From the human T2T-CHM13v2.0 reference genome, Homo sapiens: DNA of 64,000 nucleotides. Positions within the stretch are counted from its first letter, which is position 1; each line of letters starts with the position of its first letter. The stretch lies in the NCBI RefSeq assembly GCF_009914755.1, contig NC_060936.1, one strand, 5' to 3'. Shown piece after piece: positions 1 through 2,070 of the stretch. The translations under genes and the position numbers were made by a program. Below the pieces are notes generated by a model that was not told where the DNA came from, made no database searches, and saw only the letters and a program-made list of their open reading frames with translations.

Positions 1-113
1 TACCACCGATTAAATTATGGAAAAATTTCAGGGGGAGATAGCAACAGGATGAGACGGCAACATTTTCTTTTATGCTCAAGCTTTGTTTTTAAATGCCAGA
101 GAAACAAGGATAT

Positions 114-327
114 ATTTTTTCTTGTTTTATTTTTAAATTTATAATTGATACAACAATTGTACATATTTATGGTGTGCAATGTTATATTTCAGTGCATTTA
201 TACATCATATTATGATCAATTGGAGTATTTACCATATCCATCACTTTAAACATTTATCCTTTCTTTGTGGTGACAACATTCAAAATCTTCTAAGTATCCT
301 GAAATATACATTACACTGTTTTTTGCT
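114..327 (-). mobile_element. L1MA 3' end with degenerate poly(A)
   Basis: ttgtacatatttatgg..tccatcactttaaacatttatc..gtggtgacaacattcaaaatc is typical L1MA 3'UTR; T-rich tail at 114-135. Confidence 0.8.
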
Positions 328-378
328 AAATGGCAAACAGATGTATGAAACCATGTTCAGCATCACTAATCACCAGAG
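328..378 (+). mobile_element. Short L1 ORF2 fragment, opposite in orientation to the adjacent L1MA 3' end
   Basis: aaatggcaaacagatgtatgaaaccatgttcagcatcactaatcaccagag resembles the L1 ORF2 C-terminal region. Confidence 0.7.
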
Positions 379-1138
379 CAGCGCAAACCTTGACCTCTTA
401 ATCGGCCCTTTATCATCACCTATGCCCCAACCCCATGCCAGGGGGCAGTATTTCACAGGAAGGAACTTTCAGAGGAGCCAACTCTGCCTGGACCAGTCGT
501 TGAAGAGGTTAGTCCTGGGGAGAGGGTGCTGTGATAGCCTGGGGTCTGACACTCACCAGAGGGTTGGGCTGGCAGCAGAATGCTCTCTCTCCCACCGCCT
601 TGCCTGTGGAACCTCTTATGCCAGGCTTGTCTGGAGGAAATGAGTTCTAGCTTCCATGTGGGGCTTGAGGGCAAGGGAAAGGTAGGGTTTGAGATGAGAA
701 TGAGGACTTGGGTTATGCTAACAGCTTCCAGTTTGGGTCTCAGGTTCTGACTCAGAAGCCAAGTATGAGGATATAGCCCCCAGTTGGGCGGGGAGACAGG
801 ATCACAGGGTTTGGGATGGGTGGACTCCTCTCAATCGTGTGGTTCAGGGAACAAACCCTGAGCAACTAGACCCAGATGGGTGAATTTCTGGAGAATTTGA
901 TGCTATTGCCATCACTATCAGCCCCAAGGCTTCCATTATACCCAGTCTTGGGGAGGGTGCACCATTTACATAGACCAAACATGAATGATGCTTCCTGGAG
1001 TTGGCTAATTGACCGATCTGTACCCTGAACTTTCCTTCCTATGGCAGACATTGCTCATCAAACACAGTTTATGTTCAGTTTAGATAAGGACTAGAGTCCT
1101 TCTCCACATGGGGCTGCAGACAAGCCCTGCCAATTCCT

Positions 1139-1704
1139 CAAGATCTCCAGCTCAAGAGTAAGCGGTTGGCCATCACTCTCTAATGAACCTTGATGAGCCC
1201 CCAGGAAACACAGAGGCACCTCCAGTAGCCCTGGATGATGCAGACAGCATTGAGGATGTGACATTAGCGCTGGCAGATGTGGCACATGTGGGCTAGGGAC
1301 TGCGGTGTGACTGCTGCCCACTCCTCCCGTGAGAAGTCCTCCAATGCTGCCTGCCCACTGCCTCATCTCCAGAATCCTGGACAGTATCAGCCACCATCAG
1401 CACTGAATGATCCAGGTGCTGAGGGCTGTGTTCCACAGTGCCTGATGCACCAGGGTGCCCCAACACCAGGCTTGGATCTTGATGACTGCCATATCTTTGT
1501 CAGAGAGCTTCTTTTGGTTTTCTGGGGGTTTTCCAAATTTCTCATTGGCATTAGCCACTGTTTGTGTCTTAACCAGAGCCAGAGTTTTGGCCTCTGCCTT
1601 CAACTTTGAGGTTAATGGTCCCGAAGAAAAATGGGCCAGCATGTCCTTCTGCTCAGGCTCATCTTTTGTGTGTGTGGGTTTATTCATTTTTTTAGGCTGC
1701 TTCC
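1139..1704 (-). pseudogene. Processed pseudogene of IQ motif containing F1 (IQCF1-like)
   Basis: Minus-strand translation [97 protein letters not shown] / QAALEDFSREEWAAVTPQS..ILNAVCIIQGYWRC..LELEIL is colinear with recalled human IQCF1. It has no introns, stops at 1399-1397, 1266-1264 and 1182-1180, and frameshifts. The native ATG and the last ~18 codons are missing. Confidence 0.9.
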
Positions 1705-1714
1705 TATTAGTTCT

Positions 1715-1845
1715 GTTCTGCAAGTTGTACAGGAAGCATGGTGCTGACATCTGCACAGTTTCTGAAGAGGCCTCAAGGACCCTTTACTCATGGCAGAAGG
1801 TGAAGCGGAGCAGGCATCTCACATAGCAGAGCAGGAGCAAGAGAG
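1715..1845 (-). mobile_element. MST (MSTB-like) MaLR LTR fragment: transcribed portion up to the LTR splice donor
   Basis: Minus strand ctctcttgctcctgctc..tgtgagatgcctgctcc..ccatgagtaaa..gaggcctc..cagatgtcagcaccatgcttcctgtacaacttgcagaac matches the recalled MST consensus. It stops where the consensus continues with gtgagccaattaaa. Confidence 0.85.
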
Positions 1846-2070
1846 GAAATAAAGATATTTAATGTAGGGAAAGGTTGGGAGGGTTTTGTGTGTGTGTGTG
1901 TGTTTCCAGGGGTTTGTATTCAAATGTATGTGGTATACAACTACTAATATCTTGTCGAAGTTACATGTTTATTATTCTAGGCTGAGGTCTGCAGGAGATA
2001 GAATTAGCAAACAACTAGAATCCATACAACGGGTAAAATTCCAAATATGGTCAAGATTTTGAGAGGGTTC

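What the first reader, a model, noticed from the sequence alone, without database searches (positions are those of the whole stretch)
101..1862. Candidate fossil of an MST-LTR-initiated, spliced IQCF1 mRNA retrotransposed into a TMEM117 intron
Seen, reading the - strand: MST LTR piece (1845-1715), 10-nt linker, intron-less IQCF1 lacking its own ATG (1704-1139), unique sequence, then an L1MA 3' end with poly(A). It is bracketed by gaaacaaggatat (101-113) and gaaataaagatat (1846-1858), 11/13 identical, and the right copy runs into TTT/AA, an L1 endonuclease-type site. Known: MaLR LTRs act as germline/early-embryo promoters and splice from an internal donor (..cagaacc|gtgag) into host genes; IQCF1 is a testis/sperm gene. 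The LTR piece lacks the upstream promoter half and stops right at that donor, which is the shape of an LTR-derived first exon rather than a genomic LTR. Inference: an ancestral primate made an MST-IQCF1 chimeric transcript in cells where L1 was active, and this insert records that possibly extinct isoform.
Basis: partly seen in the sequence, partly recalled or inferred. Interest (0 to 1): 0.85.

Follow-up and report, generated by a model that had tools for sequence, protein, structure and literature searches.

The report
IQCF1 retrocopy with LTR-derived first exon
This is an old, dead, L1-made copy of a spliced IQCF1 messenger RNA whose normal first exon is replaced by the transcribed start of an MST-type retroviral LTR, so it probably preserves a hybrid LTR-IQCF1 transcript made in an ancestral primate germ line.

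Summary
On the minus strand, window 1858-101 is one L1-type insertion flanked by an 11/13 target-site duplication. It contains a 131-nt MST-type LTR piece (1845-1715), then IQCF1 exons 2, 3 and 4 with introns 2 and 3 removed exactly.

- The "unique sequence" and the "L1MA tail" are not separate parts. Window 1140-115 is colinear with the DNA downstream of IQCF1 on chr3, including an L1 3' end already resident there. The source RNA was therefore a long-3'UTR IQCF1 isoform.
- 139 nt of the last exon are missing: the last 18 codons, the stop codon and the proximal AATAAA.

The LTR piece starts 23-34 nt downstream of the TATA-like box in 5 of 5 full copies. It ends at the LTR's internal splice donor. 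IQCF1 homology starts within 0-5 nt of the exon 2 acceptor. That is the shape of an LTR-derived first exon.

Against a cis origin, human has no same-strand MST within 70 kb upstream of IQCF1. The junction is also not clean. Reverse-transcriptase template switching at a shared 10-nt microhomology remains a live rival.

Verdict: a new example of a known kind, of moderate interest.

The parts
1846..1858 (-). 5' target-site duplication copy. It may extend to 1860 if AA is included. It is preceded by TT, giving an L1 endonuclease-type site.
   Evidence: 11/13 to window 101-113 and unique within 4 kb. It abuts the first LTR base.
1715..1845 (-). MST-type MaLR LTR piece. It is the R-region segment from the predicted transcription start to the internal splice donor. 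The family name is recalled, not tested against Dfam.
   Evidence: 36 full-span genomic matches at 82-85%. The start lies 23-34 nt downstream of the TTTAAA box in 5 of 5 full copies, and 183-210 nt into the LTR in the 4 copies with a recognisable LTR 5' end. Copies continue with Y-R-TGAGCCAATTAAACC.
1705..1714 (-). Ambiguous junction ('linker' AGAACTAATA). Possible readings: a 5-nt tandem duplication, plus the last LTR base T (1709), plus a diverged start of exon 2 (1708-); or the last 10 nt of IQCF1 exon 1; or continued LTR sequence.
   Evidence: Alternative alignments. No other MST copy among the 11 places I read (2 exact, 9 with one mismatch) out of 936 matches at up to 2 mismatches carries this string.
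1592..1704 (-). IQCF1 exon 2 (parent chr3 51936015-51935911). It may begin at 1708.
   Evidence: 60/78 identities by BLAST and K2P 0.27. The parent exon is preceded by ...cccctaatgctgattgcag|.
1529..1591 (-). IQCF1 exon 3 (parent 51929824-51929762). Intron 2 is removed exactly.
   Evidence: 54/65 identities. Splice sites are seen.
1139..1528 (-). First 390 nt of IQCF1 last exon (parent 51928267-51927878). Intron 3 is removed. It carries an in-frame TGA and frameshifting indels.
   Evidence: 329/399 identities with 4-, 3- and 1-nt gaps. The stop after ...IIQC is seen.
329..1140 (-). IQCF1 3' flank, single-copy (parent 51927738 to about 51926890). It follows a 139-nt gap relative to the parent (51927877-51927739: last 18 codons, stop, proximal AATAAA).
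   Evidence: Colinear at 80-84%. Content of the gap is shown.
114..328 (-). L1 3' end and A-rich tail, copied from the L1 that sits just downstream of IQCF1 on chr3 (down to 51926670).
   Evidence: The IQCF1-locus copy is the best non-self hit among 40 scored of 1,539 candidates, and the only one that also covers the 37 nt upstream of the repeat. Colinearity stops inside the parent's A-run.
101..113 (-). 3' target-site duplication copy.
   Evidence: It follows the last base that is colinear with chr3.

Best explanation
About 40-70 million years ago, an L1 reverse transcriptase copied a hybrid polyadenylated RNA into what is now a TMEM117 intron.

The RNA had these parts:
- It began at the transcription start of a then-young MST-type LTR and ran about 131 nt to the LTR's internal splice donor (...GCAGAAC[T]|GTGAGC).
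- It was joined by splicing to the acceptor of IQCF1 exon 2, so the normal exon 1, which carries the ATG, was skipped.
- It continued through exons 3 and 4.
- It read past the proximal poly(A) signal for about 1.07 kb.
- It ended at the poly(A) signal and A-run of an L1 fragment downstream of IQCF1.

Shown: single insert, TSD, intron loss, colinearity of the whole 3' part with chr3, and the positions of the LTR piece's ends relative to the TATA-like box and the donor.

Inferred: that the LTR-IQCF1 join was made by splicing (in cis from an LTR since lost or never fixed, or in trans), and that the 5-nt repeat and the mismatches at the junction arose after insertion.

The copy is a dead pseudogene.
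For: - One TSD (11/13) encloses everything and sits flush with both ends of the insert. Background for such a match is about 6e-5 per position.
- The LTR piece is isolated. There is no U3 upstream and no U5 downstream.
- Its first base aligns 23-34 nt downstream of the TTTAAA box in 5 of 5 full copies.
- 35 of 36 genomic matches end at window 1717-1713, directly before Y-R-TGAGCC. This is the MST counterpart of the conserved MaLR donor TGTAAGY, which lies next to the poly(A) signal (PMC5538554 passages; SD-PAS passage in PMC12999487).
- The parent exon 2 is preceded by a pyrimidine tract plus cag, and the ATG is the last 3 nt of exon 1. Splicing ATG + e2 + e3 + e4 gives an intact 205-aa ORF.
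- With the LTR exon ending ...GCAGAACT, the copy aligns to exon 2 from its first base. This needs only a 5-nt tandem repeat (CAGAA) as gap.
- LTR-initiated isoforms that splice into annotated exons are common in germ cells. There are 639 such genes in human oocytes (PMC6102241 passage). Mouse Iqcf1 itself has a sequenced MERVL-LTR-initiated chimeric transcript (PMC6389204 passage).
Against: - No same-strand MST-type LTR lies between IQCF1 exon 2 and 70 kb upstream in human. The only upstream MaLR LTRs (chr3 51937566-51938221 and 51939808-51940482) are antisense.
- The junction is not the clean donor|acceptor join that splicing predicts. It needs a 5-nt duplication plus 4 substitutions in the first 5 nt of exon 2.
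- Models that keep 10 nt of exon 1 or 10 more nt of LTR score 1-3 points higher than the splice model in a simple alignment: 23-29 against 22-26.
- RefSeq's curated pseudogene span runs to 1711, that is, into the 'linker'. I take this to mean that NCBI's alignment matched exon 1's last bases there (inference from the hub annotation).
- Only human sequence was available.
Confidence: 0.5

Rival explanations
1. Template switching during L1 reverse transcription. The enzyme was copying an ordinary IQCF1 mRNA (long-3'UTR form). Ten nt before the end of exon 1 it jumped onto an abundant MST element RNA at a shared microhomology and ran to that RNA's capped 5' end. No MST-IQCF1 transcript ever existed.
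For: - GTGA(N)CCAAT occurs directly after the LTR donor (YGTGAGCCAAT) and also as the last bases of IQCF1 exon 1 (TGTGACCAATG). The motif is rare: 5 hits in 548 kb scanned on both strands, 2 of them in LTRs and 1 at the end of exon 1.
- The model LTR + exon 1 tail + exon 2 leaves no unexplained bases and scores highest or joint highest with each of the 4 LTR copies used, 25-29.
- It needs no LTR at the IQCF1 locus, which agrees.
- The LTR piece is as close to other copies (82-85%) as expected if its source was young and the family was active. MST RNA would then have been abundant.
- Same-orientation chimeras inside one TSD are a known product of ORF2p template switching (passages in bioRxiv 10.1101/2025.02.02.635956).
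Against: - It requires 3 substitutions and 3 separate small deletions within about 25 nt. Elsewhere there are 8 gap events in 775 aligned nt.
- The 10 'linker' bases match the exon 1 tail at only 5/10 ungapped.
- It makes the coincidence of the junction with both a donor and an acceptor depend on a chance microhomology.
- The survey of mRNA/L1 chimeras reports that junctions recur at splice sites, and its authors favour splicing over switching for such cases.
Confidence: 0.3
2. The LTR piece was already at the chr12 target, or arrived later, and only the IQCF1 part is the retrocopy. The 11/13 repeat would then be chance.
For: LTR fragments are common, and retrocopies do land beside LTRs (PMC5538554 passage on pseudogenes integrating next to LTRs). 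The string AGAA..CTAATA resembles the LTR terminus AGAATGGCCTAATA if a 4-nt gap is allowed.
Against: - No U3 lies upstream of 1845 and no U5 lies beyond the insert.
- The fragment would have to be trimmed exactly to the predicted start site on one side and to the donor on the other.
- There is no alternative repeat at 1704-1720 matching the 3' flank. The only match of 10/13 or better in 4 kb is at 1858-1846.
Confidence: 0.05
3. The join was made at the RNA level by another route. One option is trans-splicing of an MST RNA donor to the IQCF1 exon 2 acceptor. Another is RNA ligation. A third is read-through from an LTR inserted directly in front of exon 2, with an internal LTR deletion.
For: It explains the donor and acceptor coincidence without a distant cis LTR. 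Trans-splicing is proposed for mRNA/L1 chimeras.
Against: Trans-splicing is rare in mammals (recalled). The read-through version requires an imprecise internal LTR deletion of about 75 nt, and neither splice sites nor the GCAGAA/GCAAGAA repeats reproduce it.
Confidence: 0.15

Closest known systems
LOC100294713, the IQCF1 processed pseudogene annotated by RefSeq at window 1079-1711
   Same: Same locus and the same parent gene.
   Different: The annotation covers only about 633 nt. The insert defined by its TSD is 1,732 nt (1845-114). It also holds an LTR-derived 5' segment and about 1 kb of IQCF1 3' flank ending in an L1 tail. One literature search on this pseudogene (LOC100294713 / IQCF1P1 / 'IQCF1 pseudogene') listed a single paper holding the LOC identifier once, on an unrelated topic (glioblastoma), which I did not open.
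LTR-initiated transcripts of MaLR LTRs (mouse MT/ORR1, human THE1/MLT1), where the LTR supplies promoter, first exon and an internal donor next to its poly(A) signal (PMC5538554, PMC6102241, PMC13408016, PMC12999487; passages read)
   Same: The 5' segment runs from the predicted LTR start site to the homologous donor, and is joined at the acceptor of exon 2 of a host gene.
   Different: Here the evidence is a DNA fossil, not RNA. The driving LTR is not found at the parent locus in human. The MST donor position is inferred by homology with the mouse motif and was not shown to be used.
Chimeric L1-mediated insertions: U6/L1, mRNA/L1 5' chimeras and Buzdin-type chimeric retrogenes (bioRxiv 10.1101/2025.02.02.635956 passages; Buzdin papers recalled only). 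The SVA-MAST2 exon 1 fusions are also recalled only.
   Same: Two RNAs in the same orientation inside one TSD, with an L1 endonuclease-type site. A first exon is joined to a downstream RNA at or near splice sites.
   Different: The 5' partner is an LTR first exon and the 3' partner is a host mRNA, not L1 or SVA.
Mouse MERVL-LTR-driven Iqcf1 chimeric transcript (PMC6389204, passage read)
   Same: The orthologous gene is driven by an ERVL-class LTR, and the chimeric transcript was confirmed by sequencing.
   Different: A different LTR family, a different lineage and an independent event. It is live RNA in ES cells, not a retrocopy.
Processed pseudogenes as records of past transcript isoforms (Shemesh et al. 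2006, seen only as a title in the reference list of PMC7290577; the paper itself is not held)
   Same: A retrocopy preserves a non-canonical isoform. Here that means an alternative 5' exon and a long 3'UTR.
   Different: This is a single case, with an LTR-derived exon.

Membership tests
L1-mediated processed pseudogene | Introns of the parent gene removed exactly | tested here: met
   Introns 2 (about 6.1 kb) and 3 (about 1.5 kb) are absent. Exon junctions lie at window 1592|1591 and 1529|1528.
L1-mediated processed pseudogene | Target-site duplication flanking the insert, with an endonuclease-type site | tested here: met
   11/13 repeat, unique in 4 kb. The plus strand reads ATTT/AATG at the 5' copy. 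The consensus is recalled.
L1-mediated processed pseudogene | 3' poly(A) tail | tested here: inconclusive
   The insert ends in GAAAAAA, which is colinear with the parent's own CAAAAAAA run in the L1 tail. No extra A tract survives.
LTR-initiated chimeric transcript (MaLR type) | 5' end at the LTR transcription start | tested here: met
   The first base lies 23-34 nt downstream of the TTTAAA box in 5 of 5 copies. The start site itself is inferred from spacing and was not measured.
LTR-initiated chimeric transcript (MaLR type) | LTR exon ends at the LTR-internal splice donor | tested here: inconclusive
   Unambiguous LTR homology ends at GCAGAAC, directly before YGTGAGC. However, 9-10 following bases can also be read as continued LTR (6/9).
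LTR-initiated chimeric transcript (MaLR type) | Joined to a genuine acceptor of a downstream host exon | tested here: met
   IQCF1 homology begins 0-5 nt inside exon 2. Its acceptor and reading frame are validated by a 205-aa spliced ORF.
LTR-initiated chimeric transcript (MaLR type) | Same-strand LTR upstream of the host exon in cis | tested here: not met
   None in chr3 51936016-52006000 (human only). There are two antisense MaLR LTRs 1.4-4.5 kb upstream. Further upstream could not be fetched.
Template-switch chimeric retrogene | Two unrelated RNAs fused in one orientation inside one TSD | tested here: met
Template-switch chimeric retrogene | Junction unrelated to splice sites, often with microhomology | tested here: inconclusive
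   The junction coincides with a donor and an acceptor. A 10-nt microhomology, GTGA(N)CCAAT, also sits exactly there.
MST subfamily of MaLR LTRs | Best match to the Dfam/Repbase MST models | not testable with these tools
   No repeat library is on hand. The piece matches thousands of dispersed LTR copies (2,463 candidates). Their sequence I recognise from memory as MST-like.

The most novel reading that the evidence does not exclude
The insert is the only surviving record of an MST-promoted, exon-1-skipping IQCF1 isoform. That isoform was made in an ancestral primate germ line from a young MST insertion at the IQCF1 5' end. The MST insertion was later lost or never fixed. The same testis gene was independently put under ERVL-class LTR control in the rodent lineage (MERVL-Iqcf1).
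Probability: 0.35. Interest if true: 0.55.

Novelty: new member of a known kind. Interest (0 to 1): 0.4.

Why it matters
If the splice reading is right, a retrocopy has preserved the exact first exon (start site to donor) of an MST LTR promoter event that is no longer visible at the parent locus. That would show that pseudogenes can be mined for extinct LTR-driven isoforms. It would also date germline MST promoter activity.

If the template-switch reading is right, this is a rare LTR-RNA/mRNA chimera made by L1 at a microhomology.

Either way it refines the annotation of LOC100294713. It also shows that IQCF1 once produced a long-3'UTR transcript ending in a downstream L1 tail. It has no evident present-day function.

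Tried and rejected
- IQCF1's own exon 1 or promoter is LTR-derived. An apparent similarity by eye did not hold. Full LTR copies gave no consistent hit in the 1.6 kb around exon 1 at E <= 10.
- The linker string is a subfamily variant of MST. Of 936 genome matches at up to 2 mismatches (control 474), I read 11 places (2 exact, 9 with one mismatch). None lies in an LTR.
- The linker is a micro-exon from the IQCF1 locus. The only near matches (AGAACTCATA, twice) lie in intron 2, downstream of exon 2.
- The MST at chr3 51916660-51917086 (minus strand, 76% to the piece) is the source. It lies 10 kb downstream of IQCF1's 3' end, so it cannot drive IQCF1 in cis.
- The 139-nt gap in the last exon is a spliced intron. 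No GT-AG or GC-AG ends are seen in the human parent. It is flanked by TCTTG/CTCTG, so a deletion is as likely.
- Literature searches for retrocopies carrying LTR-derived first exons returned 1, 0 and 31 papers. None was identified as describing such a case, judging from titles and the starts of abstracts of the 1 and 12 papers listed, plus passages of three already open. This does not show that the idea is unpublished.
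Full report
**What is there.** The window is human chr12 (T2T), inside a TMEM117 intron. Read on the minus strand, window 1858-101 has this order: a 13-nt repeat, a 131-nt LTR piece, about 10 ambiguous bases, IQCF1-like sequence, about 800 nt of single-copy sequence, an L1 3' end, and the repeat again.

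The 13-mer after the insert (113-101, ATATCCTTGTTTC) matches 1858-1846 (ATATCTTTATTTC) at 11/13.
- This is the only match of 10/13 or better in the first 4 kb.
- Only 8 of 127,976 positions in the whole window (both strands) reach 11/13, and those 8 include the two copies themselves.
- The fixed-register probability is 3e-5.

Both copies lie flush with the ends of the insert as defined independently by homology. On the plus strand the 5' copy runs into GATATTT/AATG, close to the L1 endonuclease site (consensus recalled).

**The IQCF1 part and its parent.** A search of the window's own genome places the parent on chr3, minus strand. Local BLAST against the fetched locus gave the following:

| Window | chr3 | Identity |
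|---|---|---|
| 1703-1626 | 51936010-51935936 | 60/78 |
| 1593-1529 | 51929826-51929762 | 54/65 |
| 1533-1139 | 51928272-51927878 | 329/399 |
| 1140-115 | 51927738-51926670 | 863/1076, 57 gap positions |

The parent sequence shows ...cccctaatgctgattgcag|GAGGAGAAGCAGCC at the first of these exons. About 180 nt upstream it shows ...gtgaccaATG|gtaagag.

Joining ATG + 51936015-51935911 + 51929824-51929762 + 51928267 onward gives an intact 205-aa ORF, with its stop ending at 51927821. This validates a four-exon model in which the start codon is the last three bases of exon 1. The copy therefore holds exons 2, 3 and 4 with introns 2 and 3 removed exactly. It lacks exon 1. It is dead: it has an in-frame TGA after ...IIQC and 4-nt and 1-nt frameshifting gaps.

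**Correction of the 3' half.** The whole stretch 1140-115 is colinear with the DNA downstream of IQCF1, including an L1 3' end that sits there in the same orientation.
- Colinearity stops inside the parent's own A-run. The parent continues AGAGGTTAAG and the copy continues TATATCCTTG.
- Among 40 scored of 1,539 genomic candidates for the L1 tail, the IQCF1-locus copy is the best non-self match (84%). It is also the only one that extends into the 37 nt upstream of the repeat.

The source RNA was therefore an IQCF1 transcript with a 3'UTR of about 1.07 kb that ended at the L1 tail.

Relative to the parent, 139 nt of the last exon (51927877-51927739) are missing. This segment holds the last 18 codons, the stop codon, and an AATAAA that overlaps the end of the CDS. 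Its ends are not GT-AG in human and are flanked by TCTTG/CTCTG. I cannot tell a deletion from an unusual splice.

**Age.** K2P distances between the copy and the parent are 0.15 (L1 tail), 0.18 (3' flank), 0.18 (exon 4), 0.22 (exon 3) and 0.27 (exon 2). With recalled primate neutral rates of 1.2-2.2e-9 per site per year, this suggests roughly 40-70 million years.

**The LTR piece.** Window 1845-1715 gave 36 full-span matches to dispersed LTR copies at 82-85% (40 scored of 2,463 candidates).
- Matches begin at window 1849-1839.
- 35 of 36 end at 1717-1713 and one ends at 1706.
- Neither flank of the insert shows LTR similarity. There are only 4 hits of 38 nt or less, at E 0.22-0.59.

I compared five full copies pairwise and built no consensus.
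- The base aligned with the insert's first base lies 34, 27, 31, 23 and 32 nt downstream of a TTTAAA-type box.
- It lies 183-210 nt into the LTR in the four copies with a recognisable 5' end.
- After ...GCAGAAC the copies read TGTGAGCCAA..., CATGAGCCAATTAAACC and the like.

That is a GTGAG donor immediately followed by an ATTAAA poly(A) signal. Franke et al. describe a conserved MaLR donor (TGTAAGY) at the same relative position near the LTR 3' end, beside the poly(A) signal (PMC5538554, passages). A 2026 paper describes closely embedded SD-PAS motifs as typical of LTRs (PMC12999487, passage). The piece is therefore the stretch from the predicted start site to the internal donor, which is the shape of an LTR-derived first exon. 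No repeat library was available.

**The junction.** Between ...GCAGAAC (1715) and ...GAAGCAGCC (1703-) lie AGAACTAATAG. Three parses were compared (scored with four LTR copies).

1. Splice model, LTR ...GCAGAACT|exon 2. The copy aligns from exon 2's first base with a single 5-nt gap that corresponds to an exact tandem repeat (CAGAA CAGAA). However, 4 of the first 5 exon 2 bases differ. Score 22-26.
2. Exon 1 tail retained (GTGACCAATG before exon 2). This needs 3 substitutions and 3 small deletions. Score 25-29.
3. LTR continues through ...GAGCCAAT. Score 23-29.

None is clean, and ten bases at about 80% expected identity cannot decide between them.

One fact matters for the rival explanation. 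The motif GTGA(N)CCAAT occurs both immediately after the LTR donor and as the last bases of IQCF1 exon 1. It is otherwise rare: 5 hits in 548 kb, of which 2 are in LTRs. Such a microhomology could guide a reverse-transcriptase jump.

The string is not an MST variant. I read 11 places (2 exact, 9 with one mismatch) out of 936 genome matches at up to 2 mismatches, and none lies in an LTR. It is not a locus micro-exon either.

**Is there a driving LTR at IQCF1?** I scanned 210 kb of chr3 (51796001-52006000) with the piece and with full LTR copies.
- No same-strand MaLR LTR lies between exon 2 and 70 kb upstream.
- Two antisense LTRs lie at 51937566-51938221 and 51939808-51940482.
- Three same-strand copies lie only downstream of IQCF1, at 51916660-51917086, 51859088-51859541 and 51800986-51801389.
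- IQCF1's own promoter and exon 1 region shows no LTR homology. It is shared with paralogues in the cluster.
- More distant sequence could not be fetched.

A young LTR that was lost or never fixed, or a join in trans, would escape it. The 82-85% identity of the piece to other copies is about what two lineages of about 8-9% decay each would give. So the source LTR was young when it was copied (inference).

**Weighing.**
- Pre-existing or later LTR fragment: made very unlikely by the single flush TSD and by the isolated, doubly trimmed LTR piece (0.05).
- Splicing: explains at once why the LTR part ends at a donor and the IQCF1 part begins at an acceptor. It fits a well-documented germline phenomenon. 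There are 639 human oocyte genes with LTR-initiated isoforms spliced into annotated exons (PMC6102241). MaLR start site and donor both lie inside the LTR (PMC13408016). A sequenced MERVL-Iqcf1 chimera exists in mouse (PMC6389204).
- Template switching: explains the missing cis LTR and every junction base, but needs an unusual cluster of small deletions.

I put a spliced chimeric RNA in cis at 0.5, other RNA-level joins including trans-splicing at 0.15, template switching at 0.3, and the pre-existing or later LTR fragment at 0.05.

**Novelty.** The pseudogene is annotated (LOC100294713, 1079-1711), but only for about 633 of its 1,732 nt. The one search on this pseudogene listed a single paper on an unrelated topic, which I did not open. 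Searches for retrocopies carrying LTR-derived first exons turned up none that I identified, judged from listings only. All the mechanisms involved are known, so this is a new member of a known kind.

Noticed in passing
L017:296-312 (chr3 about 51936296-51936312, minus strand): The IQCF1 promoter region carries TGACATCA, a CRE-like motif (recalled as typical of CREM-dependent testis promoters). The surrounding 60-110 nt are shared at 73-87% with three other sites in the IQCF cluster (chr3 51850542, 51862371, 51908616).
   Followed up: partly
chr3 51937566-51938221 and 51939808-51940482 (L017), plus strand: Two MaLR-type LTRs about 2.2 kb apart, antisense to IQCF1 and 1.4-4.5 kb upstream of it, each interrupted by Alu. 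They are possibly the two LTRs of one old MaLR element.
   Followed up: no
chr3 51927838-51927821 (L016): An AATAAA hexamer overlaps the last codons of IQCF1 (…TCAATAAAGGAATGA). The retrocopy lacks exactly the 139 nt that contain it, and it comes from a transcript that read about 1 kb further to an L1 tail.
   Followed up: partly
chr3 51935316 and 51929908 (L016), minus strand: The 22-nt string gaagagaaatttAGAACTCATA occurs twice in IQCF1 intron 2. One copy lies about 85 nt upstream of exon 3. This suggests an internal duplication of the exon 3 region.
   Followed up: no
window 1884-1904 and 2037-2900: A (CA)n/(TG)n run lies 25 nt beyond the 5' TSD. Further on, an L1 ORF2-coding fragment lies on the plus strand (ORFs of 79-173 aa).
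   Followed up: no
chr3 51916660-51917086 (L015), minus strand: A full-length MST-type LTR lies about 8 kb upstream, in sense orientation, of a minus-strand IQCF paralogue. The paralogue's promoter-like match is at 51908616 and its last-exon match at 51906449-51906586. This could be a present-day LTR/IQCF arrangement worth checking in RNA data.
   Followed up: no
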